Virus record (IMG/VR): IMGVR_UViG_3300031992_000016
Coordinates: 1-64,000 of that record
Reading direction: 5' to 3' (one strand)
DNA from: a virus
Taxonomy: Duplodnaviria > Caudoviricetes
DNA: 64,000 bases
The position numbers and the translations under genes are program-made. The notes under the pieces were generated by a model. That model ran no database searches. It was not told the DNA's origin and worked only from the letters and a program-made list of their open reading frames with translations. Every line of letters starts with the position of its first letter. Positions within the stretch are counted from its first letter, which is position 1. Below are positions 31,330 to 52,030 of this stretch, piece after piece.

Positions 31330-31418
31330 AGACACGTCAGCAAACTGACTTAAATAATTACTGCTAATGTTGCTGTATCGTAAGCACCGGGTTCGGCTCC
31401 GGGAAGATAAGCGTGTCT
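31330..31418 (+). ncRNA. ACAGCAA-family stem-closed RNA, copy 1
   Basis: AGACACG/CGTGTCT stem, TCAGCAA motif, internal CTGCTAA and T-arm-like CCGGG-TTCGGCT-CCGG. Confidence 0.65.
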
Positions 31419-33384: not shown

Positions 33385-33446
33385 AAGGCTCACACAGCAA
33401 ATTTTAATGCAATAGTATTGGTAAACTATAAGTGCAGGCGAGCCTT
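33385..33446 (+). ncRNA. ACAGCAA-family stem-closed RNA, copy 2
   Basis: AAGGCTC/GAGCCTT stem, ACAGCAA, inner hairpin ATAGT-ATTGGTAA-ACTAT. Confidence 0.7.
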
Positions 33447-33732: not shown

Positions 33733-34227
33733 CCAGGGCATGCCTGGTTTATATTGTCTAGCAACAAGGCAATCACACTGCAATGTTGTATGTAGGTAAA
33801 TGATGGGGAGGAGTTAAAGGCGTCCTCTCTCTGGGGCAATGCGGTAATACCTGCGCGCGGGTAGCAAAGTTACCCTACCAGTAGTTAGAAGTCTGTAAAA
33901 CTTCCATTGGGCTGGCTGAGAGGCCCTGGTCCATCTTCCTTGCCAACAGTGATAGTCCTGTTTAAGGCAAAAAACATGCGGGTTAGCTAAACGCGATGAT
34001 GGCTAGTTTTAGGGTTTTACGCCACGCTTTTAAGGACTTTGGCATTGATAAGCAAATTTGCTTGTCTATACTAGTTAATGCCGCAGTTCTAATTTGTCTG
34101 CACACTCGATTGGTAGTGTCCCACAAAAAAACTTGTTGAAGAGTGAAGTTGGTGGTTTTAGCTCTTAAAAAATATCTTATATGCGCTAAGATAAGGGCGC
34201 TTAATAGTGAAGGAGAGGAACTTAACT

Positions 34228-34659: not shown

Positions 34660-34776
34660 AAGACCTGTCAGCAATTATCTTTTTGCATTAGGAGCACGGG
34701 GTTCCAGGTTCGAATCCTGGGTCGGGGATTATTCCCCGGCTAGCTCAACTGGTAGAGCACGTTATTAGCGGGTCTT
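34660..34776 (+). ncRNA. ACAGCAA-family RNA, copy 3, with circularly permuted tRNA domain
   Basis: AAGACCTG/CGGGTCTT stem, TCAGCAA; T arm 34704-34720, loop-closed acceptor 34721-34740, D arm 34743-34758. Confidence 0.85.
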
Positions 34777-36948: not shown

Positions 36949-37015
36949 GTTGATTTTTTTAAAAATTTTTGATATAATATATATGTAAGATAAAGAAAGG
37001 AAGGGCAAACAGTAA

Positions 37016-37354
37016 ATGAAAATTACTCTGTTTGTGGATGATGAACGCAGACCTCACAGAGAAGATGCGCATAGTTGGATACTTGTTAGAACTGGTAAGC
37101 TTGCAATTGATTTACTTGATGCTCTTCGTAAAATTAATTCTAAGAATGTTTTTGATATATATCTTGACCATGACCTTGGCTCTGGCATAAGCGGTTATGA
37201 TGTAGCAAAATATATTGTAGATAACAATATCACAGAAGTGCAACATGTATATGTAATAAGTATGAATCCAGTTGGTGCGCAGAATATTTGTGATTTGCTT
37301 AATCATTACGGTTGGTCGGCAAAGCGAGTGGGGCTAGATGTTATTGGATTATAA
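37016..37354 (+). CDS. Cyclic-phosphate-processing receiver-domain protein
   Basis: LFVDDER.P, LDHDLG, GYDVAK, SMNPVG motifs. Confidence 0.75.
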   Translation: MKITLFVDDERRPHREDAHSWILVRTGKLAIDLLDALRKINSKNVFDIYLDHDLGSGISGYDVAKYIVDNNITEVQHVYVISMNPVGAQNICDLLNHYGWSAKRVGLDVIGL

Positions 37355-37447
37355 AGCCCCTTAGTTCAACGGTAGAACACCGGTCTCTAAAACCGTTATA
37401 TCCCTCTGAAGGAGGTAGTCTGGGTTCGAATCCCAGAGGGGCCGCCA
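37355..37447 (+). tRNA. Amber-decoding tRNA (anticodon CTA), probably Gln; extended variable arm
   Basis: AGCCCCT/AGGGGCC acceptor (unpaired 1:72), G73, CCA; loop CT-CTA-AA at 37385-37391. Confidence 0.9.
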
Positions 37448-37451
37448 ATCA

Positions 37452-37561
37452 TCGACACGTACAGCAAATATAAAGAGTAATCTTTATGTCATGGGTTCAA
37501 CTCCCATCCTGCACACAGTGCATGTAGCTTAGTTGGTAGAGCGAAAGAATATAAGTGTCGA
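37452..37561 (+). ncRNA. ACAGCAA-family RNA, copy 4, with circularly permuted tRNA domain
   Basis: TCGACAC/GTGTCGA stem, ACAGCAA; TCTTT/AAAGA stem, T arm 37491-37507, loop-closed acceptor 37508-37524, D arm 37527-37542. Confidence 0.85.
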
Positions 37562-37572
37562 GTAAATTTTTA

Positions 37573-37665
37573 TAGACAGCATACTGCAATGAAATATTGG
37601 ATAATATAACAGTTTTTATGCAACTATTATTAGAAGGTTCAAGTCCTTCGCTTATGCGCTGTCTA
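37573..37665 (+). ncRNA. ACAGCAA-family RNA, copy 5 (ACTGCAA variant) with isolated T arm
   Basis: TAGACAGC/GCTGTCTA stem; GAAGG-TTCAAGT-CCTTC. Confidence 0.7.
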
Positions 37666-37763
37666 GAATTTTATTAGGACATAATTAATCAACGCATTGT
37701 CCTTAAAATTGAATAAATATTAGGGTGTACATACCTAAAATTTCCATGGAAAGGACGATGCTT

Positions 37764-38234: not shown

Positions 38235-38305
38235 TAGGCTCCAACAGCAAGACAAGAAACACATTCATTTTTAACAAGAAAACGATAGGTGCTATAGGGA
38301 GCCTA
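38235..38305 (+). ncRNA. ACAGCAA-family RNA, copy 6
   Basis: TAGGCTCC/GGAGCCTA stem followed by AACAGCAA. Confidence 0.7.
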
Positions 38306-39060: not shown

Positions 39061-39174
39061 AAGATGGAAAGCCGGCTCATTACAGCAATGTTAGCCAGAG
39101 TAGTATAAAAGGCAAGTACAGCGCAGATGACAATGCGAAGATTTCGGTTCGACTCCGAACTAAAAATCCATCTT
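39061..39174 (+). ncRNA. ACAGCAA-family RNA, copy 7, enclosing an acceptor-less tRNA core
   Basis: AAGATGGA/TCCATCTT stem; TACAGCAA; D arm GTAT/GTAC, CGCA-GATGACAA-TGCG, T arm TTCGG-TTCGACT-CCGAA. Confidence 0.65.
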
Positions 39175-39181
39175 GAAATAT

Positions 39182-41601: not shown

Positions 41602-41686
41602 ATAACAGGGCTGTATAAAACAGCCCTTGATTTTTTTTATTTTTTTTGATATAATATATATAGAAAATCAATAGGAGGTTCTATAT

Positions 41687-42247
41687 ATGAAAGCATATCT
41701 CGCTGGTAGTATTTTTTATCTTGGCGATAAATTTAGAAATGAATACTTCTCTTAGAAATTGCGCGAGGCTTTCCCAGATTTAGATTTATATAATCCATTA
41801 GAAAATACTGCGATTAATGATAAAACTAAATTTGCCGATGCGAGAGCTATTGCTGATGGAGACAATGAACGTTTAAACAATAGTGATATTCTAATTGCTT
41901 GTATTGATGGAGATGTATTACCAAGTGGCACATGTTCAGAAATTGGAAAATTCCATGAAAAAATTGCACGCGGCGACCATAAGTTACTTGTGGGAATTTG
42001 TACTGATACACGTCAGCAATATCTCACTCATAGTGCAGAAAAAGATAGCACATACAACGAACCCGGTGAGTGCCAATATTGTTATGAAAATCTATATGTT
42101 ACTGGACTCATTAAGCAAGCGGGCACTTTGGTAACAAATATTGAAGATGCTATTAAAGCTATTTCTATTTGGTTAGATCAAAAGGATATAAAAGCTTTTA
42201 TTAATGATTATCATACATTTTGGGAGGAAGGGTCTGAATGGCGGTAA
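41687..42247 (+). CDS. Nucleoside 2-deoxyribosyltransferase family, 1 TAG
   Basis: MKAYLAG, YNP, D..RL..SD, SGTCSEIG, NLYV.G. Confidence 0.85.
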
Positions 42248-43524
42248 ATTATTCTTTACGAGAAAAACCTCGTAATTGGAAAGACGCAATTGGTTATACT
42301 CTATAGTTTGTATTTGCGGTCCTAACCGCAACTATTTTAATCGCAACTATCTGCGGAACCAGCATCGCGGCAGGTCTCGTCGCAGCAGGTATCGGCACAT
42401 TAACTTTTTTGTGTATCACAGGTTTTAAAGCGCCAATAGTGATTAGTAATAGCGGCGCTACGGTATCTGCGGTAGTAGGTGCATTAGCTCTATCTAGTGC
42501 AGTTGAAACTAATTTCGCTGGTGTTATTTTAGGTGGCGCGGTAATCGCAGTTATTTATGGAGCAGCAGCATTGGCAATTAAGAAATGGGGCATTCAATGG
42601 TTACAGAAGCTAATTCCGCCACTAATTTCGGGGACAACCATATTAGTAATCGGTATTACATTGGCTGCATTTATTCCGACATACGCACTTGTGGGTGGCA
42701 GCTATTCGTTATGGGGCATCCTTATTGCGGGGATTACAGCAATAACCACAGTTCTGTGTATGCATTATGGGAAGAGCTTAGTCAAGACAATGCCTTTCTT
42801 AATTGGTTTGCTAGTAGGGTACATTGTCAGTTTTGTCCTAACTTTAACAAATGTTGCTCCATTAGTCAACATGGACGCATTGAAGATTTCAAGTGTCTTT
42901 ACTGTTCCCCAATTTGCCTTCTTGCAAACGAACTTCAATACTTTCGATTGGTCAGCTCTACCGCAAATCATTCTCTCATTTGGAATGGTAGCACTTGCGG
43001 CAATGACTGAGCACATTGGAGATATGACGACTGCTTCTGCTGTAACTGGATATAATCTATTAGAAACTCCTGGTTTGCATCGCACATTACTTGGTGATGG
43101 CGTAGGTAGTTTAATGGGTACTATTGTTGGCGGATAGCCCAATACCACTTATAGTGAATATACTTCTACAATGGCAATTAGCGGAGTTTATAGCACTTGG
43201 TACACATTATATACTGCTATTGTTTTAATCGCACTTGGTTTTATTGCACCATTTAATGCTTTCTTAATGGCATTACCTAATGCGGTATTTGCTGGTGTAT
43301 CAATAGTAGCATATGGTATGATTGCTCTTGCTGGTTTGCGCACTATTGTAAATGCAAATATTGATTTTAGCAATAGTAAAAATCAAATTATATTTGCGGC
43401 AATGGTAACAACCGGATTGAGTGGTTTAGCAATTACATATGGAGCATTTAATTTAACAGGCATTGCGCTTGCAATGATTGTCGGTGTGCTATTGAATGTA
43501 ATTTTAAAAAATAAGGGAGAGTAA
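42238..43524 (+). CDS. NCS2/UraA-family nucleobase permease, 2 TAG
   Basis: L[TAG]FVFA (conserved TM1 Gln), EHIGD, PGLHRTLLGDG, GG[TAG]PNTTYSE, YGMIA..G.R. Confidence 0.9.
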
Positions 43525-43626: not shown

Positions 43627-45159
43627 ATGAGTGAATTTCTTAACAGCTTAAAGGTTGCTACTAACATGACCCATACGACTAATGGCGCTCTTACCTATAA
43701 GTCTACGCTTAACAAGGTGTATGATTTGTTCGCTCAGGGTGCGGCTATGCGTAATGGCGATGAATCTATGTGTCGTTCTTTGTTTATGTCTGCATATCAT
43801 GAAAATCCTACGCTGGCATTAAAGTGTCTGTTCTATTTGCGTGATATTCGTGGCGGTCAAGGCGAGCGGCGCTTCTTCCGCATTGCTATTCGTTCACTGG
43901 CTCAGAAGTATCAAAAGGAAATGTCTAATCTGGTAAAGTATATTCCTGAATTTGGTCGGTGGGATGACCTATATACTCTTGTAGATACCCCTCTGGAAAA
44001 TGAAGCATTTGCTTTTATGAAGAAGCAGATTATGCTGGACTTGGACAGCAAGACCCCTTCTTTGCTTGCTAAGTGGCTGAAGTCTGAGAATACCTCTTCT
44101 CAGGAGTCTGTGCGCTTGGCAACTAAGACTCGTCTGGCTTTCGGTCTGTCTGCGCGGCGTTATCGTAAGATGCTGTCTCTGCTTCGTAATCGTATTAACA
44201 TCGTTGAAACTCTGATGTCTCAGAACCGCTGGGACGAGATTGAGTTTGATAAGCTGCCTTCTCGGGCTGGTATTATTTATAAGAATGCATTCGCACGCCA
44301 TGACATTACTAAGGCTCGTTATGAAGCATTTATTAAGGATGAGAACACTAAGGTCAATACCGGAACTCTTTATCCTTATGATGTTGTTCATGAAGTATCT
44401 AAGTTGTGGAAGGGTTGGTATAACTATAAGCTGACTAAGGACGTCAATGACGTTGAACGTTTGGCCATCAATAAGTATTGGGATAATCTGACCGATTATT
44501 TCAATGGTGCAACTCTGAACGCGCTGGCTGTTGTAGATACCTCCGGTTCTATGACTAGTGGGTCTGGAAATATTGCTCCTATTGATGTCGCTATCGCTCT
44601 CGGTATGTATTGCGCTGACCGTGCGCAGGGACCTTTCCATAATCACTTTGTTTCTTTCAGCCGCCGTCCTGAGTTGATTGAAATTGAGGGTGTGGATTTC
44701 TGCGAGAAGGTAAGCAATATCTATCGTCAGAACCTGTGTGAGAATACCAACATCGAAGCTACCTTTGATTTGCTTCTTAACACTGCAAAGCGCGCTCATC
44801 TGCGTCAGGATCAGCTTCCTCAGTCTCTGATTATCATCAGCGATATGCAGTTTGACCGGGCAACTGGCCGCTACTGTAATGATGATGAAATGGATGCATG
44901 GGCTAACACTTTGTTTGAAACTATTAATCAGCGCTGGGAAAATGCCGGATATGAGATGCCTCATCTTATCTTCTGGAACGTAAATGCTGCTTCTGGTGGC
45001 GGAAACATTCCTATGCGCGACAGTGGAAATGTTACTTACGTCAGCGGTGCTTCTCCTGTTATTCTGGAACAGGTGCTTACGGGCAAGACTGGCCAGGATG
45101 TCATGCTGGACAAGCTGATGTCTGAACGCTACGCTGTTATCAAGTCTATTACTGAGTAA
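43627..45159 (+). CDS. DUF2828-family protein (helical TROVE/Ro60-like N-terminus plus vWA domain)
   Basis: TNGA..Y.ST, FYLRDIRGGQGER, GRWDDL, LLAKWL.SE, LYPYDVV, VVDTSGSM, IISDMQFD, IFWNV, VSG.SP. Confidence 0.85.
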   Translation: MSEFLNSLKVATNMTHTTNGALTYKSTLNKVYDLFAQGAAMRNGDESMCRSLFMSAYHENPTLALKCLFYLRDIRGGQGERRFFRIAIRSLAQKYQKEMSNLVKYIPEFGRWDDLYTLVDTPLENEAFAFMKKQIMLDLDSKTPSLLAKWLKSENTSSQESVRLATKTRLAFGLSARRYRKMLSLLRNRINIVETLMSQNRWDEIEFDKLPSRAGIIYKNAFARHDITKARYEAFIKDENTKVNTGTLYPYDVVHEVSKLWKGWYNYKLTKDVNDVERLAINKYWDNLTDYFNGATLNALAVVDTSGSMTSGSGNIAPIDVAIALGMYCADRAQGPFHNHFVSFSRRPELIEIEGVDFCEKVSNIYRQNLCENTNIEATFDLLLNTAKRAHLRQDQLPQSLIIISDMQFDRATGRYCNDDEMDAWANTLFETINQRWENAGYEMPHLIFWNVNAASGGGNIPMRDSGNVTYVSGASPVILEQVLTGKTGQDVMLDKLMSERYAVIKSITE

Positions 45160-45434: not shown

Positions 45435-46238
45435 ATGCTCTTTAATAAAACGCAGGAACAAAAACAGAAAATTCTTGACAAGGTTCAAAATCATCATTAT
45501 TTCGTCGAAAATTATTTGCCAGATGAAGTAATTTTTACAGCACTAATTGGTAGTCAAAATTATAATTTAGATACTGAGAATAGTGATATTGACACTATTA
45601 CATTTATTTTGCCGTCTTTATCTTCCTTTTATACAACAGAACAATTAATTTCAAAAGAATATGAACTTGAAGATGGCAAAGCAGTAATTAAAGATATTCG
45701 TTTATTTTTTAAGCTTTTGCGCAAAAGTTCGCCCAATAGTATTGAATGGATTTGCAGCCATTATATGTATATTAATCCAACATATGAAACTGTTATTGAG
45801 CGGATGCGCAATGATTGCAATCTATTAAGCAGCTGCGATATACTCAATATGCTACATGCAATTGCTGGCACCGCAACACAGTTACATGGTAGAAATATGA
45901 CTATTGGTAAGCGTTTCTCACATGTTTTACGTTTAGATGATATGATGTACACTTATACAGTTAATTTTGAAAATGGCGATTTCTTAGCGCTGCGGCCTGG
46001 CGATATGCGCATGGCATTAGATGCAAAAACTGGTCATTGTAATTTAACTGATGATGAAATCAAAAGTGAATGTGATAAATTAACCACAAAGATTAATCAA
46101 GAAGTTACTGATTATCATTTAACTTCTATCGACATTAATCGCATGGCGCTTGCGCGAGCACTTTTAAAATTTCATGAAAGACGCTTATTTGAGACTTACT
46201 TGCATACCCAGGGATTTGAAAAAATTAAAAAAATTTGA
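45435..46238 (+). CDS. Pol-beta-superfamily nucleotidyltransferase
   Basis: GSQNYNLDTENSDID; K.SPN.IE. Confidence 0.8.
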   Translation: MLFNKTQEQKQKILDKVQNHHYFVENYLPDEVIFTALIGSQNYNLDTENSDIDTITFILPSLSSFYTTEQLISKEYELEDGKAVIKDIRLFFKLLRKSSPNSIEWICSHYMYINPTYETVIERMRNDCNLLSSCDILNMLHAIAGTATQLHGRNMTIGKRFSHVLRLDDMMYTYTVNFENGDFLALRPGDMRMALDAKTGHCNLTDDEIKSECDKLTTKINQEVTDYHLTSIDINRMALARALLKFHERRLFETYLHTQGFEKIKKI

Positions 46239-46267
46239 TATAATATATATAGAAAGTGAGGGATTAA

Positions 46268-46558
46268 GTGATGGCTATGAAGGTTTGGTTTGAAGATGCT
46301 AATGGCAATGAGCGGATTATTAAAAATACTGCTTTGACCTGGGCAGAGGTTGATCAAGCTATCAATGAATTTATTCGGCGATGCAATATCAATAAGATAA
46401 ACCAAGCTAAGCGGTTGTATGGCGACCAGTATGATGAGTCTAAGGTTAATCTCTTCAAACGGTATTATACTCGGGTATGGAAGCAAGAGGATGGCCGAAC
46501 CAAGATTGACGTAGGTTCTCATAGTGAGTTCTTCTTATGGGAGGGAACGTATGAGTAA
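46268..46558 (+). CDS. Hypothetical phage protein
   Basis: YYTRVW...DVGSHSEFF. Confidence 0.75.
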   Translation: MMAMKVWFEDANGNERIIKNTALTWAEVDQAINEFIRRCNINKINQAKRLYGDQYDESKVNLFKRYYTRVWKQEDGRTKIDVGSHSEFFLWEGTYE

Positions 46559-47075
46559 AAGTTGGTTTTTGCATGAAATTGATTATAGTCGTATTCCTCC
46601 AAGAGATAATGGCTATTGGGAAATTCGTGGCAATAAGCCTCAACCTAACACAATCATTCAAGTATATAACATGATGGGCGGTCATCATGATTATAAAGTT
46701 ACTGAATTGGATGAATTTATTTACTCTGATTGGGAGACAGTAGGACGTCGTAGATATACAGAAAATCAGAAATCAGATTATGGATGGATTGATTTAGAAG
46801 GTAATTTTTATGGTTGTGATTGGGCCGAACATAGAGATTGCGCATATATATGTTTTGGCCTAACTGAGTTAGATGCTGAACGCCAAGGCTATGTAAAAAT
46901 TTATTATGATAAATCTAATGCCAAATATGATAATTATCATTACCGTCCTGATGGTTTAGGCTGGTACTGCGATCGTCCCTTAACTGATGCGCAGATAGCT
47001 AAATTAAATGAACGAGGTTTCTCTGCCAACAGAGAAAGAGAGGATTTGTTATATGACGACGGATATGATGATTAA
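46551..47075 (+). CDS. Hypothetical protein
   Basis: GWIDLEGNFYGC...H motif. Confidence 0.7.
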   Translation: MSKSWFLHEIDYSRIPPRDNGYWEIRGNKPQPNTIIQVYNMMGGHHDYKVTELDEFIYSDWETVGRRRYTENQKSDYGWIDLEGNFYGCDWAEHRDCAYICFGLTELDAERQGYVKIYYDKSNAKYDNYHYRPDGLGWYCDRPLTDAQIAKLNERGFSANREREDLLYDDGYDD

Positions 47076-47248
47076 ACGAATTAATGAATTAGAAAGCACT
47101 GTACAAAGGTATGAAGCAGAAAATTTCGCATTGCGTGTGGAGCTTAATAGGCTTCGAGATGAATCAGCAACAATACAACAGCAAGCCGAATTTGGCAAAG
47201 CAACTGAAACTTTTATTAAAGAAATCAAAAGGATTATGAGGTGAGATT

Positions 47249-48652
47249 ATGGCATATTGTGGATATGTAGTTAAGGTAGAACATCTTCGTAAGCATACCA
47301 ATGCGGACCGTCTGCAAATTGCTACTTTTTTTGGTAATGATACTATTGTTGGTATGAACACTCAGTACGGTGATATTGGTGTTTATTTCCCTGTTGATGG
47401 TCAGTTATCTGAGCGCTTTTGTGAGGTAAATGACCTTGTGCGCCGCAAGGATGAAAACGGTAAGCAGGTTGGCGGTTATCTTGACCCTGATAAGCGTAAC
47501 ATAAAGGCCTTGAAGCTGCGTGGTGAAAAGTCTGATGGTCTTTATCTGCCTATTACTTGTTTAGCTGACTTCTGCAAGATTTCTGATTTGAAGGTTGGTG
47601 ACACTATTGATACTGTCAATGGTGAGCTGATTTGCCAGAAGTACATTCCTCATTCTAATGCTCGCACTCATGCTGGCGGTGCGAAGGGTGTAAAGAAGGT
47701 CAAGGCCAACATCGCACCTACTTTCTATGAACATGTTGATACTGCTCAGTTGGCTTATAACCTCAACGCTTTTAAGCCTGGTGATACTGTTCAGCTGACC
47801 TTGAAGATGCATGGCACTTCTGGTCGTACTGGGTATCTACCTCTGGTACATGTAAAGCAAACTTGGTTTGATAAGTTGTTCCATCGTCCTGGCAAGGAAT
47901 ATAAGGAGTATGGTTATATTACTGGCACTCGTCGTGTAGTCCTGGATGGGAAGCGCACTGGTGGTTTCTATGACTCTGATGATTTCCGTGAAGCTATGGC
48001 TGCCAAGTTCGATGGTAAGCTCCGTAAGGGCGAAGTTGCCTATTATGAAATCGTTGGATTCCAGGGACCTAATGGTGCTCCTATTATGAGCCAGGTTCAG
48101 AACTCTAAGGTAAAGGACCCTGAATTTACTAAGCAGTATGGTTCAGTAACTACTTTCTCTTATGGTTGTGAGCAAGATGGTGGCTATGAAGCTAAGAGCA
48201 TCCTTGATCCTGGCGTAGAATTTAACAAGGCTCCTTGCTGTGAAGTGTATGTCTATCGTATGACTATGGTCAATGAAGATGGTGATGTAGTAGAATATTC
48301 TCCTGCTCAGATTAAGGAGCGTTGTGAGCAGATGGGTATTCATACTGTAATGGAATTTGAAACCTTCATAATTCCTGATATGATTCAGCTACCTGACGAT
48401 GTTGGGTCTTTACAGGCGGTCGATGCTGGCGAATATGTTCTTCGTAAGGTTGAGCAGTATTTCGATGGTCCTGACCCTATCGGTAAGACCCATGTGCGCG
48501 AAGGAGTAGTTGCTCGTATCCTTAACCGTACTAACTTCGCAGTTTATAAGCACAAGAACTTCTCTTTCAAGGTGTTGGAAGGCATTGCCAAGGATGAAGC
48601 TACCGCGCCTGACATTGAAGAGGCTCAGGAAATAATGGAAGATGGAGTTTAA
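47249..48652 (+). CDS. RNA ligase (DRB0094/Rnl2-like) with N-terminal OB domain
   Basis: H.NADRL, YFP.DG, KLRGEKSDG; motif I TLKMHGTS; EGVV; K.K. Confidence 0.85.
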   Translation: MAYCGYVVKVEHLRKHTNADRLQIATFFGNDTIVGMNTQYGDIGVYFPVDGQLSERFCEVNDLVRRKDENGKQVGGYLDPDKRNIKALKLRGEKSDGLYLPITCLADFCKISDLKVGDTIDTVNGELICQKYIPHSNARTHAGGAKGVKKVKANIAPTFYEHVDTAQLAYNLNAFKPGDTVQLTLKMHGTSGRTGYLPLVHVKQTWFDKLFHRPGKEYKEYGYITGTRRVVLDGKRTGGFYDSDDFREAMAAKFDGKLRKGEVAYYEIVGFQGPNGAPIMSQVQNSKVKDPEFTKQYGSVTTFSYGCEQDGGYEAKSILDPGVEFNKAPCCEVYVYRMTMVNEDGDVVEYSPAQIKERCEQMGIHTVMEFETFIIPDMIQLPDDVGSLQAVDAGEYVLRKVEQYFDGPDPIGKTHVREGVVARILNRTNFAVYKHKNFSFKVLEGIAKDEATAPDIEEAQEIMEDGV

Positions 48653-49672
48653 TTTATGAATAGAGAACAATATAGACGTTGGGCTAAAACTAATAAAAAA
48701 CATTTTACAGACACTTGTCCTTATTGCAAACGTGATACTCGTTTTATCTTCGCTGAGGATGTACCTGGCGAAGTAACTGTAAAATGTGCTGTATGTGATG
48801 CGGTTGTTAATTCAGAACCTGAACTTAAAGAATTTGGCGTGAAGGGCGTGTATATGCCCTTCCCGCTTCGCACACTGGAAGCAATTATTCTATCTGCGAG
48901 GATGCAAAAGCAAAAAGAACAAGAGCAGAAGGAGAAAATGCTGAAAGATGAAATATCTGATAGTGCTCGGATATCGTGACTCAAATACGCATAAAACAAC
49001 TTATACTAATGGTTTTTGTAAAGAGATGCTCGATGGTAATGCGGCTAGAATACTCGCGCGTCAGAAAGAAATTGAATATCTGCGCTCATTAAATGTATGG
49101 AAACGAGTTGTAGAAAATGCACCTACTTTAGAAGCTGCCGCAGAAACTTTTAAAGATATGATAGCTTATATGGTATGCTGGCTACATAATTACGTCAATT
49201 TACCAGTTGTGCAAGTGTTACCATGGGAAATTATTTATCAAGAGTATATATTCTATAAGGAGGAGTATCATGACTAAGGAACAGAAAGTCGAGCAGCTTC
49301 AAGCGCGTAAAAAGAGGATCCTGTCGCGTGGTTATTATAATATGAGAATTGCGAATAAAATTGATCGCAAAATTAGGAGGATTCAAAATGGATGAATTTT
49401 TTAAAGTAATTGGAGTATTAGTGCTACTTGCGCTTCTTATCTTCCTCGGTCCGCTCGTTGTGATGATTGGTTGGAATTGTGCGCGAGAAGCATGGCCAAT
49501 GCTTCCAGTACTGTCTTATTGGCAGGTATTTTGGATGACAAATGGTTTGAGCCTGATTTTTAAAACAACCACAACTGGTCGCTACAAAAATGATTAATTA
49601 ATCAAGGGATTTACTCCCTTGATTTTTTTATAATTTTTTGATATAATATATATAGAAAGCGAGGGAAGAAGT

Positions 49673-50413
49673 ATGAACTACTATGCAATGGGTGACATTC
49701 ATGGCCGTGCAGATTTGTTCTGGAATGCAGTAGAATTTATGAGTCATGATGCTGCGCCAGGTAAGTGGCATTGTTATTTTCTTGGCGATGCCTGTGACCG
49801 TGGCCCTGATGGTTGGGAACTCATTAAAATCCTATTGGACAATCCTAACCTATTTACATATCTCTTGGGCAATCATGAAGATATGTTACTCAAAGCAATT
49901 GCATCATTAAAATCAGTAGCGCGATTTCATAATCTAGACATCACTGATTATGATGCAATAAGAGAGAATACTTATTCTCAAAACGTGGCACTTTGTGATT
50001 ATAATGGCGGCGACCCAACTATGAGAGCGGCGCTGAAAGACCCAAAGCTCAATGAATATGTTTTAAAGCTAAGACAGCTTCCACTTACTGCATCTCATGG
50101 AGTAATTGATATGTGCCATGCCGGTTGTACCATTGGCGATTGGGAGCGGTTAAAGGACGTTCGCAATGATGAGGCTATTGACATCTTCTGCTGGGACCGT
50201 GAGCATTTTGGGGCACCCTGGTATGAAAATCGTATTTTGCTTCATGGCCATACTCCAATAGTTAGCAGCCATTTTAGACCTTGGAAAGATTATGGCCCAT
50301 ATAAGACTGGCGAAAAAGTAAATCTTGATGCTGGCGCAGTTTGGACCAATGAACTTTATCTTTATGATTTTCAACAGCAAGATGTTGTAGTAATTCACGC
50401 TATTGAAAATTAA
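49673..50413 (+). CDS. Calcineurin-like Ser/Thr phosphatase (NinI/PrpA-like)
   Basis: GDIHG, GDACDRG, GNHE, HAG, HGHTP, DAGA. Confidence 0.85.
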   Translation: MNYYAMGDIHGRADLFWNAVEFMSHDAAPGKWHCYFLGDACDRGPDGWELIKILLDNPNLFTYLLGNHEDMLLKAIASLKSVARFHNLDITDYDAIRENTYSQNVALCDYNGGDPTMRAALKDPKLNEYVLKLRQLPLTASHGVIDMCHAGCTIGDWERLKDVRNDEAIDIFCWDREHFGAPWYENRILLHGHTPIVSSHFRPWKDYGPYKTGEKVNLDAGAVWTNELYLYDFQQQDVVVIHAIEN

Positions 50414-50940
50414 TAAAAAATTTGGTATAATATATATGTAAGATAAAGAAAGGGGTTTGGTAAGAAATGAAAGATACTTGCTATTGTATTTATCGTCATG
50501 ATGACCCTGACAATCCATTCTTTTTTGAAGATGCTGATTCTGCAATGTTCGTAATGAAGTACATTAATCCTGAGTACCGTGATAGATATAAGGTTGAAAA
50601 GTGTATGTCTCCGTTTATGGACCCTTGCGAAGCGATTGATAGAATTAACATGTTTGAAAATAAATATGGAGAGTGAGATATATGGCACGTGGAGTTAATG
50701 CTTTTGAATCTCATGACTTTTATTGTATGTGCTGCGGCAATAAAGGTATTCCGCTATCACGACAGGTTGGCAAAAACCGCGGCGCGCAACATCGCAAACT
50801 TCTATATTGTATCTACTGTCAAAAGCGCGTAAATCATATCGAATGTCGTAATGAGCAAGAAGTCAAAGCGTTCAAGGAGGATTTTGAAAATGGACTCTAT
50901 CTTGATGAAGCAGTCGCAGAACTTAACTATGCAGATGCCC

Positions 50941-51432
50941 ATGCGTAAGCCTATTCTATACATTATGTGCGGCATTCCTGGTAGCGGTAAATCTACCCTC
51001 GCTGAGAAGCTGATGCGCGACAAGGCTGATGAAGATATTCGATATGTTTCTCGTGATGAAATTCGGTTCCATTTACTTAAAGAAGGAGAAGATTACTTCT
51101 CTCATGAAGATGAAGTATATGATCGTTTTGTTGGAACCATTGCTAATACCCTGATTGATGGATTTGATGTCATTGCAGACGCAACTCACTGCAATCATGG
51201 CTCTCGGGCGAAGCTGTATAATTATCTGCGACTGTGGCATATGCCGCCCGAAGATTATGATGTTGTGTTTATCCAGATGACTACTTCTTTTGAAGAGTGC
51301 ATGAAGCGTAATGATTTGCGCGAAGGTGTGACTCATGTGCCAAAGTCTGTTATGAAGCGCATGTGGGCGCAGAGCACTTATCCTACTAAGCATGAATTCT
51401 CTAATGTTAAGGACGTGATCTATCATGAGTGA
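50941..51432 (+). CDS. Polynucleotide-kinase-like P-loop kinase (AAA_33)
   Basis: GIPGSGKST, SRDEIR, DAT, RN..R....VP. Confidence 0.85.
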   Translation: MRKPILYIMCGIPGSGKSTLAEKLMRDKADEDIRYVSRDEIRFHLLKEGEDYFSHEDEVYDRFVGTIANTLIDGFDVIADATHCNHGSRAKLYNYLRLWHMPPEDYDVVFIQMTTSFEECMKRNDLREGVTHVPKSVMKRMWAQSTYPTKHEFSNVKDVIYHE

Positions 51433-52030
51433 AATTTTTTTCACTTCTGACACTCACTTCTGCCACGAACAAGATTTTCTTTATGCACCACGCGGATGCT
51501 CATCTACTGAGGAAATGACAGAAAAGATTGTAAATCGTTGGAATGAAGTTGTAGGAAAAAATGATATTGTTTATCATCTCGGTGATGTGCTGATGGGACA
51601 TTATGATGTTAATATCCTATCCAGACTCAATGGTTCGATTAAATTAATTAGAGGCAATCATGACACCGATAAGAAATTGCGCGACATCTACGCGATTGGT
51701 AAATTGGCTACTGATAATATACTTACTAGCGAACTTATAAAGTTCGGCAAACTTTCGCTATTCTTGTGCCACTATCCAGTCCTTACTGCCAATTTCGATG
51801 ATAGGCATTTCAGTCAGCACGTGATTTCCCTGCATGGGCACACACATCAATCAAAGAACTGGTTATTCCCCTCTAACCCGTTCATATATCATGTGGGCCT
51901 TGATTCACACGATTGTTATCCGGTTCATATTGAAACCATCATTCAAGACATTAAGAACCGATGGAATGAATTGGGTACAATCAACGGCATACACCCTCTC
52001 GTCTCTGTAATGCCGGAATATCCCCTGTAA
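51425..52030 (+). CDS. Calcineurin-like metallophosphoesterase
   Basis: TSDTHF.H, HLGD, GNHD, HYP, HGHTH. Confidence 0.85.
   Translation: MSEIFFTSDTHFCHEQDFLYAPRGCSSTEEMTEKIVNRWNEVVGKNDIVYHLGDVLMGHYDVNILSRLNGSIKLIRGNHDTDKKLRDIYAIGKLATDNILTSELIKFGKLSLFLCHYPVLTANFDDRHFSQHVISLHGHTHQSKNWLFPSNPFIYHVGLDSHDCYPVHIETIIQDIKNRWNELGTINGIHPLVSVMPEYPL

What the first reader, a model, noticed from the sequence alone, without database searches (positions are those of the whole stretch)
37452..37561. Circularly permuted tRNA domain, element 2, directly behind the amber tRNA
Same topology as element 1 with a different sequence: TCTTT...T arm ATGGG-TTCAACT-CCCAT, acceptor CCTGCAC-ACA-GTGCATG, D arm GCTT-AGTTGGTA-GAGC, then AAAGA completing a 5-bp anticodon stem. 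A competing local hairpin ATAAAGA-GTAA-TCTTTAT uses the same strand, so two folds are possible. Two dissimilar sequences with one architecture argue for selection on structure. It starts 5 nt after the suppressor tRNA, so co-transcription is likely.
Basis: seen in the sequence. Interest (0 to 1): 0.82.

Follow-up and report, generated by a model that had tools for sequence, protein, structure and literature searches.

The report
Phage Y-like RNA, inside-out tRNA
This 110-base stretch is a real, conserved phage small-RNA gene shaped like a tRNA with its ends swapped. It sits on a short conserved stem-plus-ACAGCAA "handle" that travels with a Ro60-shaped phage protein. It is most likely an uncatalogued phage cousin of bacterial Y RNAs, not a tRNA that decodes anything.

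Summary
A 7-bp terminal stem encloses ACAGCAA, a small hairpin, a T arm, a closed acceptor hairpin, a D arm and a second AAAGA.

- **Covariation.** Relatives in more than 60 phage contigs keep all five helices with compensatory changes. In a structure-blind alignment 95.8% of cells pair, against 65.6% when shuffled.
- **Closest known family.** This is YrlA, the bacterial tRNA-like Y RNA. The Rfam match spans the full model but scores 32 bits against a cut-off of 69. The YrlA Ro-binding motif and a TROVE gene are both absent.
- **Protein partner.** The stem-plus-ACAGCAA handle co-occurs with a DUF2828/DUF7788 protein (window 43627-45159). Its predicted fold best matches Ro60. The protein is present in 23 of 25 complete handle-bearing genomes and in 0 of 10 controls.
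- **Cultured phages.** In 7 of the 8 cultured phage lineages I looked at, two to four handle RNAs lie next to that gene.

Best reading: this is the RNA subunit of a phage Ro-like particle, with a tRNA-shaped module. A decoding permuted tRNA is unlikely here, because the copy has no 7-nt anticodon loop and no CCA.

The scan had already reached the same reading for element 1 of this window. I rate it a new variant of a known kind.

The parts
37452..37458 (+). 5' strand of the terminal 'handle' stem (TCGACAC)
   Evidence: It pairs with 37555-37561. This helix is 97.6% paired with compensatory changes in A1 and 94.6% paired in A2.
37461..37467 (+). Conserved single-stranded motif ACAGCAA, 2 nt after the stem
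   Evidence: The motif keeps the same register (2 nt after a 7-bp stem) in 50 of 56 family members. It is present in handle RNAs next to DUF2828 genes of cultured phages.
37470..37487 (+). Local hairpin ATAAAGA-GTAA-TCTTTAT. It consists of the upstream copy of the anticodon-stem 5' strand, a 4-nt loop and the 3' strand.
   Evidence: It is part of the minimum-energy fold. The upstream copy covaries with TCTTT in the orthologues L037, L064, L039, L101 and L163.
37486..37490 (+). Variable loop ATGTC. Its C48 can pair with G15 (Levitt pair).
   Evidence: Read directly from the sequence. Positions 15:48 read A:U or G:C in 46 of 59 family members.
37491..37507 (+). T arm ATGGG-TTCAACT-CCCAT
   Evidence: The helix is 100% paired in A1 and 99.7% in A2.
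37508..37524 (+). Closed acceptor hairpin CCTGCAC-ACA-GTGCATG
   Evidence: The helix is 96% and 92.8% paired, and all 7 pairs show changes on both sides. The orthologues have G-CCA plus a spacer in this loop; this copy does not.
37525..37543 (+). U8 A9, D arm GCTT-AGTTGGTA-GAGC, G26
   Evidence: The D helix is 97% and 95% paired. U8:A14 and the GG of the D loop are present in 59 of 59 members.
37544..37548 (+). Downstream AAAGA. It can pair with TCTTT (37481-37485) to make the long-range anticodon-like stem.
   Evidence: All five pairs show changes on both sides in A1, which is 87% paired. A2 is 73% paired.
37555..37561 (+). 3' strand of the handle stem (GTGTCGA), followed by a T-rich tail
34660..34776 (+). 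Sister element 1, with the same design (handle AAGACC/GGTCTT, motif TCAGCAA)
   Evidence: YrlA 35.7 bits; R1 79.5 bits; fold z-score -3.9.
37573..37665 (+). Next handle RNA, 11 nt downstream (stem TAGACAGC/GCTGTCTA, motif ACTGCAA). Its cargo is a lone T arm.
43627..45159 (+). DUF2828+DUF7788 protein with a Ro60-like fold, the proposed protein partner
   Evidence: Pfam; PHROG 850 'RNA-binding protein'; AlphaFold model with pLDDT 81.6; Foldseek top hits are all Ro60, E 1e-7, TM 0.5-0.55 over the full length.
37016..37354 (+). cREC (cyclic-phosphate-processing receiver) gene immediately upstream of the amber tRNA and this element
   Evidence: Pfam PF20274, 69 bits.
45435..52030 (+). RNA-repair gene set: RlaP-type nucleotidyltransferase, RNA ligase, phosphatase, polynucleotide kinase and phosphoesterase

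Best explanation
Element 2 is a small non-coding RNA gene of the Y-RNA type.

1. **Transcription (inferred).** It is transcribed with the tRNA cluster, probably from the promoter-like site at 36950 together with the cREC gene and the amber tRNA. The tRNA-processing nucleases then release it.
2. **Folding (supported by covariation).** Its two ends pair into a 7-bp handle. Next to the handle lies the single-stranded ACAGCAA. The rest folds into a tRNA-shaped body with T arm, D arm, tertiary-contact nucleotides and an acceptor stem closed by a loop. That body therefore cannot be charged as it stands.
3. **Protein partner (inferred from co-occurrence, adjacency and analogy).** The handle plus ACAGCAA is the docking site for the phage's Ro60-shaped DUF2828 protein. 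In the same way, the terminal stem and CGAA bulge of Y RNAs dock Ro60.
4. **Role of the tRNA-shaped module (speculative).** It makes the particle look like a tRNA to enzymes that handle tRNAs. Candidates are RNase P, modification enzymes, exonucleases such as PNPase, host anticodon nucleases, and the phage's own ligase/kinase/phosphoesterase repair set. The particle would thus take part in the phage-host conflict over tRNA cleavage and repair.

The hairpin and the long-range stem compete for TCTTT. They may act as a switch between a five-way and a four-way junction.
For: **Architecture.**
- The element matches Rfam YrlA over the full model.
- All five helices covary in a structure-blind MAFFT alignment of 18 sequences. 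95.8% of cells pair, against 65.6% when shuffled and 34-45% when the partner is slid. 25 of 28 pairs have compensatory changes.
- The same helices hold in 62 distinct sequences aligned to the model.
- The tRNA tertiary signature is kept: U8:A14 and the D-loop GG in 59 of 59 members, and 15:48 as A:U or G:C in 46 of 59.
- G-U pairs and a constant orientation point to an RNA read from the + strand.

**Handle.**
- At least seven stem-plus-[AT]C[AT]GCAA RNAs with different cargos lie in this tRNA cluster.
- More than 100 further examples came from IMG/VR.

**Partner.**
- DUF7788 is present in 39 of 48 handle-bearing records, and in 23 of 25 that are at least 90% complete.
- It is present in 0 of 10 complete control records.
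- It occurs in 702 of 50,697 INPHARED records.
- One of the two exceptions carries a true TROVE protein instead.
- The fold is Ro60-like.

**Adjacency in cultured phages.** Two to four handle RNAs touch the gene in each of these:
- Mycobacterium phage JoeDirt
- Escherichia phage dune
- Listeria phage VAfA18
- Bacillus phage Tsamsa
- Staphylococcus phage CF9
- Campylobacter phage PC5
- Enterococcus phage EFDG1

**Literature.**
- YrlA-type Y RNAs mimic tRNA and are modified by TruB and DusA. In M. smegmatis YrlA is cut by RNase P and gains CCA (PMC4201824).
- A phage Ro60 binds two phage Y-like RNAs and host PNPase (PMC12135203).
- Felixounavirus Bas63 gp130 is Ro60-like and sits upstream of the tRNAs. 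Its authors guessed that some of those 'tRNAs' are Y RNAs (PMC11482910).
Against: - No binding has been shown; the protein link is co-occurrence and position only.
- In this window the DUF2828 gene lies 6 kb away, not adjacent.
- The YrlA Ro-binding motif (GNCGAAN0-1G) is absent, and the Rfam score is under half the family cut-off.
- Bas63 gp130 counters the Ppl defence when expressed alone from a plasmid or from T7 (PMC11482910). The protein can therefore act without its RNAs, at least in that assay.
- The co-occurrence counts are not corrected for phage relatedness or genome size. The control genomes are mostly smaller.
- My pattern scan required ACAGCAA and a T loop, so motif frequencies are biased.
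- The terminal-stem helix was also a selection criterion.
- One complete 332-kb record with a handle RNA has neither DUF2828 nor TROVE.
Confidence: 0.58

Rival explanations
1. It is a true permuted pre-tRNA. RNase P and 3' trimming with CCA addition would open the acceptor loop. A phage nuclease plus the phage RNA ligase would remove the handle and seal the anticodon stem. The product would be a chargeable, perhaps decoding, tRNA, or a two-piece tRNA held together by the handle.
For: - All tRNA parts are present in permuted order.
- 12 of 62 relatives have N-CCA directly after a 7-nt 3' acceptor strand, where about 1 is expected by chance. The closest orthologues all keep GCCA although their stems differ.
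- 14 or more relatives carry a local hairpin with a canonical CU-NNN-AA 7-nt anticodon loop.
- The phage encodes RNA ligase, kinase, phosphoesterases, an RlaP nucleotidyltransferase and cREC.
- M. smegmatis YrlA is cut by RNase P and receives CCA (PMC4201824).
Against: - This copy has a 4-nt GTAA loop instead of an anticodon loop.
- Its acceptor loop is only 3 nt (ACA), without CCA, and it has a T-C mismatch in the acceptor stem.
- There is no bulge-helix-bulge motif, and no tRNA-intron endonuclease in the genome.
- The same handle carries cargos that are not tRNA-like at all: 46-70-nt hairpins in JoeDirt, Listeria, Staphylococcus and Campylobacter phages.
- The phage already has 33 ordinary tRNAs.
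Confidence: 0.1
2. It is a free-standing tRNA decoy or processing element that needs no Ro-like protein. It could be a sponge for host anticodon nucleases or other tRNA-targeting defence toxins. Alternatively it could be a structured spacer that helps RNase P, Z or E process the tRNA operon and protects the ends.
For: - It has a tRNA-like core with an exonuclease-proof closed acceptor and a clamped terminal stem.
- It is embedded between tRNAs with 4-11-nt spacers.
- Many relatives display real anticodon loops for Asn, Thr, Arg, Lys, Ile, Ser and Phe.
- Phage tRNAs are known to counter tRNA-cleaving defences (bioRxiv 10.1101/2023.03.15.532788, title and abstract only).
Against: - It does not explain the invariant ACAGCAA in fixed register.
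- It does not explain the near-perfect co-occurrence and adjacency with the Ro-like gene.
- This copy has no anticodon loop to offer a nuclease.
Confidence: 0.2
3. It is a decaying relic: the junction of a tandemly duplicated tRNA gene whose outer halves were lost, with no function.
For: The layout equals a window cut from a tRNA-tRNA tandem: anticodon arm to 3' end, spacer, 5' end to anticodon stem. That also explains the duplicated AAAGA and the CCA in relatives. Ordinary tRNA-tRNA junctions give weak hits to the same models.
Against: - Compensatory changes occur in five helices across 62 sequences from very different phages.
- A conserved handle lies outside the tRNA parts.
- The element scores 95 bits, against 31 or less for real junctions.
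- Both copies of the duplicated strand co-vary with their partner in the orthologues.
Confidence: 0.03

Closest known systems
YrlA-type bacterial Y RNAs (Rfam RF02553; Chen et al. 2014, PMC4201824), partners of Ro60/Rsr
   Same: The 5' and 3' ends pair into a stem that carries the protein-binding module. The rest is a tRNA-like domain with a T arm, an acceptor-like stem closed by a loop, a D arm and tRNA tertiary nucleotides, including the covarying 15:48 pair. Several paralogues occur per genome, encoded near the protein gene and near RNA-repair genes.
   Different: The element scores 32 bits against a cut-off of 69. The GNCGAAN0-1G motif is replaced by ACAGCAA, 2 nt after a 7-bp stem. The partner candidate is a DUF2828/DUF7788 protein, not a TROVE protein. 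Many members keep a whole anticodon arm. The genes are embedded in phage tRNA arrays.
Phage Ro60 with Y-like RNAs: Thermus phage phiLo phiRo60 with Yrl1/Yrl2 (PMC12135203); mycobacteriophages, CcrColossus and Bacillus phage G (cited there from Chen 2014)
   Same: A phage-encoded Ro60-fold protein has two or more small stem-bulge-stem RNAs encoded right beside it. The proposed use is hijacking host RNA-decay enzymes.
   Different: Those proteins are recognisable TROVE proteins, and their RNAs carry the CGAA motif. The paper does not use the term 'tRNA-like' for Yrl1 or Yrl2. Here the protein family, the motif and the cargo all differ.
Felixounavirus Bas63 gp130, a Ro60-like counter-defence protein against Ppl (PhageMaP preprint, PMC11482910)
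   Same: It appears to belong to the same protein family as window 43627-45159: the Felixounavirus homologue in phage dune is about 32% identical, though Bas63 gp130 itself was not compared. It has the same position directly upstream of the tRNA array. The authors speculated that some annotated tRNAs are Y RNAs.
   Different: No RNA was identified there. In the related phage dune the handle RNAs lie between the annotated tRNAs rather than among them. The gp130 effect did not need the RNAs.
Circularly permuted tRNA genes of Cyanidioschyzon merolae and some archaea (known to me from Soma et al. 2007; reviewed in PMC4090602, which I did not read in detail)
   Same: The 3' half lies upstream of the 5' half. 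Leader and trailer pair. An intervening sequence sits at the acceptor end.
   Different: Those use a bulge-helix-bulge motif and the splicing endonuclease, and they yield decoding tRNAs. Here there is no such motif or enzyme, no anticodon loop in this copy, and the hosts are bacterial.

Membership tests
YrlA (Rfam RF02553) | Score at or above the curated gathering threshold (69 bits) | tested here: not met
   32.4 bits, with full-length model match 1-114.
YrlA (Rfam RF02553) | tRNA-like domain: T arm, closed acceptor-like stem-loop and D arm, with conserved tRNA tertiary nucleotides | tested here: met
YrlA (Rfam RF02553) | Ro60-binding module with GNCGAAN0-1G in the 5' strand (PMC4201824) | tested here: not met
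   The 5' part reads TCGACACGTACAGCAAATAT. It has no GNCGAA; ACAGCAA stands in its place.
YrlA (Rfam RF02553) | Encoded next to an rsr/TROVE gene | tested here: not met
   There is no TROVE match in the complete 169-kb genome. A Ro60-fold DUF2828 gene lies 6 kb downstream.
YrlA (Rfam RF02553) | Bound by Ro60 and modified by TruB and DusA | not testable with these tools
   Needs immunoprecipitation and modification mapping.
Stem-plus-ACAGCAA 'handle' RNAs of DUF2828 phages (family defined in this scan, not in Rfam) | A 6-9-bp terminal stem starting W-R-G-R-Y, followed 0-3 nt later by [AT]C[AT]GCAA | tested here: met
   The element has TCGACAC / GT / ACAGCAA. The second base is C instead of the usual A or G.
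Stem-plus-ACAGCAA 'handle' RNAs of DUF2828 phages (family defined in this scan, not in Rfam) | The genome encodes a DUF2828/DUF7788 Ro60-fold protein | tested here: met
Permuted tRNA genes (C. merolae type) | 3' half upstream of 5' half, with complementary acceptor strands | tested here: met
Permuted tRNA genes (C. merolae type) | A 7-nt anticodon loop reconstituted in the mature product | tested here: not met
   The only loop on TCTTT is GTAA, 4 nt. Orthologues have 4-5 nt.
Permuted tRNA genes (C. merolae type) | Bulge-helix-bulge junction plus a tRNA-splicing endonuclease | tested here: not met
   No PF01974 match in the genome. No 3-4-3 bulge-helix-bulge is visible between the handle and the anticodon-like stem.
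Ordinary tRNA / tmRNA | Detected by ARAGORN or the Rfam tRNA model | tested here: not met
   ARAGORN calls nothing at 37448-37700. The Rfam tRNA model gives only an 18.9-bit match that borrows the T arm of the next element.

The most novel reading that the evidence does not exclude
The family could be tRNAs re-plumbed for a ribonucleoprotein rather than mere look-alikes. The protein-binding handle is inserted inside the 5' strand of the anticodon stem, and the acceptor is closed by a loop. In many members that loop still reads N-CCA. RNase P and 3' trimming would then give a two-piece, CCA-ended and possibly chargeable tRNA, tethered to a Ro60-like ring. The duplicated anticodon-stem strand would act as a strand-exchange switch or as a splint for the phage nick-sealing RNA ligase. 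That would be a new route by which a virus makes or repairs tRNA-like molecules.
Probability: 0.12. Interest if true: 0.88.

Novelty: new variant of a known kind. Interest (0 to 1): 0.66.

Why it matters
Ro60-Y RNA particles are known in animals, in bacteria and in a few phages. The RNAs that partner the much commoner DUF2828 'Ro-like' proteins of phages have not been described in anything I could find.

These proteins occur in about 1.4% of sequenced phages. They include Felix O1-like, Listeria A511/P100-like, staphylococcal, campylobacter, enterococcal and mycobacterial phages used in research and therapy.

The handle rule (stem plus ACAGCAA) gives a simple way to find those RNAs. It shows they are tRNA-derived and it provides dozens of natural variants. 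That makes the function of a proven counter-defence protein (Bas63 gp130) and the meaning of tRNA mimicry by Y RNAs directly testable in laboratory phages.

It also warns annotators that gaps in phage tRNA arrays hold real genes.

Tried and rejected
- **Near-identical DNA.** The only match in 50,697 phage records was the amber tRNA of Phage Phass-1. An exact 22-mer of the element found nothing in IMG/VR.
- **Synteny through the cREC gene.** This gave only distant relatives. In those, the element next to cREC is the element-1 type, not the element-2 orthologue.
- **Intron-containing tRNA.** I considered a tRNA built from this D arm and the T arm at 37640. It scores 18.9 bits, has only 5 acceptor pairs and needs a 66-nt insert, so I rejected it.
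- **tmRNA.** ARAGORN finds none.
- **T4 stable RNAs rnaC and rnaD.** I read them; they have no 5' stem-plus-ACAGCAA, so they are not this family.
- **Sequence link from DUF2828 to Ro60.** None was found by phmmer against PDB sequences. Only the fold shows the link.
- **DNA-level inverted repeat or recombination site.** Rejected because stems differ between copies, covary and use G-U pairs on one strand.
- **Unavailable sources.** The supplement of Chen et al. 2014 (phage list) and the Sim et al. 2020 review are not held. I therefore could not check whether any DUF2828 phage RNA was already listed there.

Full report
**1. The observation**

Coordinates are given under 'parts'.
- ARAGORN finds 33 tRNAs in the window. 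It places the amber (CUA) tRNA at 37355-37447 and calls nothing in 37448-37700.
- The element begins after a 4-nt spacer.
- RNAfold closes the stretch with the 7-bp stem TCGACAC/GTGTCGA and forms the T, acceptor and D hairpins. It prefers the local hairpin ATAAAGA-GTAA-TCTTTAT (-30.9 kcal/mol, z = -3.1).
- Forcing TCTTT onto the downstream AAAGA costs 7.5 kcal/mol.

**2. What it resembles**

- A scan of the tRNA cluster against Rfam gave a full-length match of 37466-37572 to YrlA, the tRNA-like bacterial Y RNA (32.4 bits; cut-off 69).
- The same model gives weaker hits (23 bits or less) on junctions between adjacent tRNAs. Those are a known false-positive class (PMC4201824).
- The genome is a complete 168,960-bp phage with terminal repeats and has no TROVE (Ro60/Rsr) gene.
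- The YrlA Ro-binding motif GNCGAAN0-1G is not in the sequence.

**3. A handle shared by a family**

- Notes from this scan pointed to a stem-plus-ACAGCAA design. I tested it.
- Of the [AT]C[AT]GCAA sites in the window, eleven on the + strand have a perfect closing stem of at least 6 bp. Seven lie in the tRNA cluster with stems of 6-8 bp. About 16% of random positions have a 6-bp partner.
- The cluster copies lie at 31330-31418, 33385-33446, 34660-34776, 37452-37561, 37573-37665 and 38235-38305. All lie on the tRNA strand. Their cargos differ: a permuted tRNA twice, a lone T arm, or small hairpins.

**4. Relatives and covariation**

- A T-arm pattern scan found orthologues of element 2 in four other IMG/VR phages.
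- A scan for ACAGCAA followed by a T loop, filtered for a closing stem, gave more than 100 distinct elements from contigs of 4-424 kb.
- I aligned 18 of them with MAFFT, which is blind to structure. On that alignment 95.8% of cells pair, against 65.6% after shuffling and 34-45% after sliding the partner. 25 of 28 pairs carry changes on both sides. All five helices are supported: handle 97.6%, anticodon-like 87.4%, T 100%, acceptor 96%, D 97%.
- A covariance model built from this alignment scores element 2 at 95 bits, element 1 at 80 bits and tRNA-tRNA junctions at 31 bits or less. These are the only two such elements in the genome.
- Across about 100 loci the model found 66 matches, 62 of them distinct. 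Pairing was 94.6, 73.0, 99.7, 92.8 and 95.4% for the five helices.
- tRNA tertiary positions are kept: U8:A14 and the D-loop GG in 59 of 59, and 15:48 as A:U or G:C in 46 of 59. Element 2 has G15:C48 and element 1 has A15:U48.
- Caveats: the terminal stem and the T loop were selection criteria. The second alignment is fitted to the model.

**5. Finer anatomy**

- In the element-2 clade the strand that pairs with TCTTT is present twice, and both copies change together with it. The window and L037 have AAAGA/TCTTT/AAAGA. L064 and L039 have ATACT/AGTAT/ATACT. L101 has GAAGT/ACTTT/AAAGT. L047 has only the downstream copy. Both alternative helices therefore seem to be under selection.
- In the wider family at least 14 members have a local hairpin with a 7-nt loop. 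Most read CU-NNN-AA, a canonical anticodon loop (anticodons GAU, UGU, GUU, UCU, GCU, GAA, UAU, UUU).
- In these members the local stem is about 3 bp, and the downstream strand adds 2-3 bp from position 27. The handle thus behaves like an insertion in the 5' strand of the anticodon stem of an otherwise whole tRNA body.
- Twelve of 62 acceptor loops start N-CCA, where roughly one is expected. The element-2 orthologues all read GCCA plus a 5-6-nt spacer. The window copy has only ACA.

**6. The protein partner**

- Window 43627-45159 encodes a 510-aa DUF2828+DUF7788 protein (PHROG 850 'RNA-binding protein').
- It has no sequence match to solved structures.
- Its AlphaFold model (46-sequence alignment, pLDDT 81.6, pTM 0.80) is matched over its full length by Ro60. 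The twelve best-ranked chains are all Ro60: Xenopus, human, Deinococcus Rsr and Thermus phage phiLo Ro60. Scores are E 1e-7 to 1e-4, TM mostly 0.43-0.55 (0.34 for Deinococcus Rsr) and 10-16% identity. Plain vWA domains follow.
- DUF7788 is found in 39 of 48 IMG/VR records that carry handle-type hits, and in 23 of 25 that are at least 90% complete.
- It is found in 0 of 10 complete records without such hits. The seven 'control' records that did have the gene all turned out to carry handle elements or pattern hits.
- Of the two complete exceptions, one has a true TROVE protein. Two of its three permuted-tRNA RNAs carry CTACTTCA instead of ACAGCAA. The other has neither protein.
- In INPHARED 702 of 50,697 phages have a homologue, spread over Escherichia, Mycobacterium, Salmonella, Vibrio, Listeria, Staphylococcus, Campylobacter, Enterococcus and Bacillus phages. 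Some are annotated 'Ro-like RNA binding protein' or 'putative ribonucleoprotein'.

**7. Adjacency in cultured phages**

I fetched the gene neighbourhood in eight cultured phages. In seven, two to four handle RNAs lie within a few hundred bases of the gene. Most are in gaps left unannotated; the Tsamsa permuted copy partly overlaps an annotated tRNA-Glu.
- JoeDirt: three just downstream, one a permuted tRNA.
- Escherichia phage dune (Felixounavirus): four in the tRNA array just downstream.
- Listeria phage VAfA18: three just upstream.
- Bacillus phage Tsamsa: three upstream, one permuted.
- Staphylococcus phage CF9: three just downstream.
- Campylobacter phage PC5: two just upstream.
- Enterococcus phage EFDG1: three just upstream, two permuted.
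- Vibrio phage ValKK3: only a doubtful site.

In the present window the gene is 6 kb from element 2. It is followed by an RlaP-type nucleotidyltransferase, an RNA ligase, a phosphatase, a polynucleotide kinase and a phosphoesterase. A cREC gene directly precedes the amber tRNA and element 2.

**8. Literature**

- Chen et al. 2014 (PMC4201824) defined YrlA RNAs as tRNA mimics bound by Ro60. They showed TruB and DusA modification, and RNase P cleavage plus CCA addition in M. smegmatis. They also reported candidates in phages.
- A 2025 paper solved Ro60 of Thermus phage phiLo and showed it binds two adjacent Y-like RNAs and host PNPase (PMC12135203).
- A 2024 preprint found that Felixounavirus Bas63 gp130 is Ro60-like and counters the Ppl defence, even when expressed alone. 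Its authors guessed that some neighbouring 'tRNAs' are Y RNAs (PMC11482910).
- The jumbo-phage survey of Iyer et al. mentions TROVE proteins with a tRNA-like partner and defines cREC and RlaP (PMC7824862).
- My searches found no description of the ACAGCAA handle or of RNAs partnering DUF2828 proteins. The library is incomplete, and two key sources were not available.

**9. Verdict**

- Element 2 is a real, selected RNA gene.
- It works like a YrlA-type Y RNA but fails three of the four testable membership criteria for that Rfam family. I therefore file it as a new variant: a phage Y-like RNA with a permuted-tRNA module and an ACAGCAA handle, probably bound by the DUF2828 Ro60-like protein.
- Shown here: the anatomy, the covariation, the fold of the protein, and the co-occurrence and adjacency.
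- Inferred: the binding, the co-transcription and processing, and the role in tRNA damage and repair conflicts.
- The permuted-pre-tRNA reading is unlikely for this copy. Because of the conserved N-CCA and the real anticodon loops in relatives, it is not excluded for the family.
- The scan had already reached the same reading for element 1 of this window (finding e1-5844101). My evidence was gathered independently on element 2 and agrees with it.

Noticed in passing
window 37573-37665 (+): This is another handle RNA, 11 nt after element 2. It has stem TAGACAGC/GCTGTCTA and motif ACTGCAA, and its cargo contains only a T arm (GAAGG-TTCAAGT-CCTTC). Rfam's tRNA model stitches this T arm to element 2's D arm for a spurious 18.9-bit 'tRNA with a 66-nt insert'.
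   Followed up: partly
window 31330-31418, 33385-33446, 38235-38305, 39061-39175 (+): These are further stem-plus-[AT]C[AT]GCAA RNAs in the tRNA cluster, with small or T-arm-only cargos. Each ends in a T-rich tail after the 3' strand of the stem.
   Followed up: partly
window 37355-37447 (+): This is an amber (CUA) tRNA with a long extra arm; ARAGORN labels it tRNA-Pyl. Many long ORFs in 25-53 kb are open only if TAG is read as a residue, so the phage recodes TAG.
   Followed up: no
window 33805-33935 (+): There is a full-length but sub-threshold Rfam match to 'cow-rumen-3 RNA' (42 bits, cut-off 86.7), overlapped by a DUF3800-XI partial match. It may be another structured RNA in the tRNA cluster.
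   Followed up: no
L147:1316-1430, L037:6627-6742 (- strand of locus), L047:6951-7065 (- strand of locus): In related phages the same handle encloses a non-permuted tRNA body: D arm, anticodon arm with loop CTGTTAA, T arm and a weak A/T acceptor. The handle therefore accepts tRNA cargo in either order.
   Followed up: no
L106 (IMG/VR 3300017917_002918, 167 kb, complete): This phage has a TROVE protein instead of DUF2828. Its three permuted-tRNA RNAs carry ACAGCAA once and (C)TACTTCA twice, which hints that the motif follows the protein partner.
   Followed up: partly
L191-L194, L197-L199 (cultured phages JoeDirt, dune, VAfA18, Tsamsa, CF9, PC5, EFDG1): Mostly unannotated gaps beside the DUF2828 gene hold two to four handle RNAs each. 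Some are only 46-70 nt, consisting of handle, ACAGCAA and one hairpin.
   Followed up: yes
window 41627-43524 (+): A nucleoside 2-deoxyribosyltransferase-like gene and a xanthine/uracil permease-family gene (185 bits) lie between the tRNA cluster and the Ro-like gene. A membrane permease is unusual cargo for a phage.
   Followed up: no
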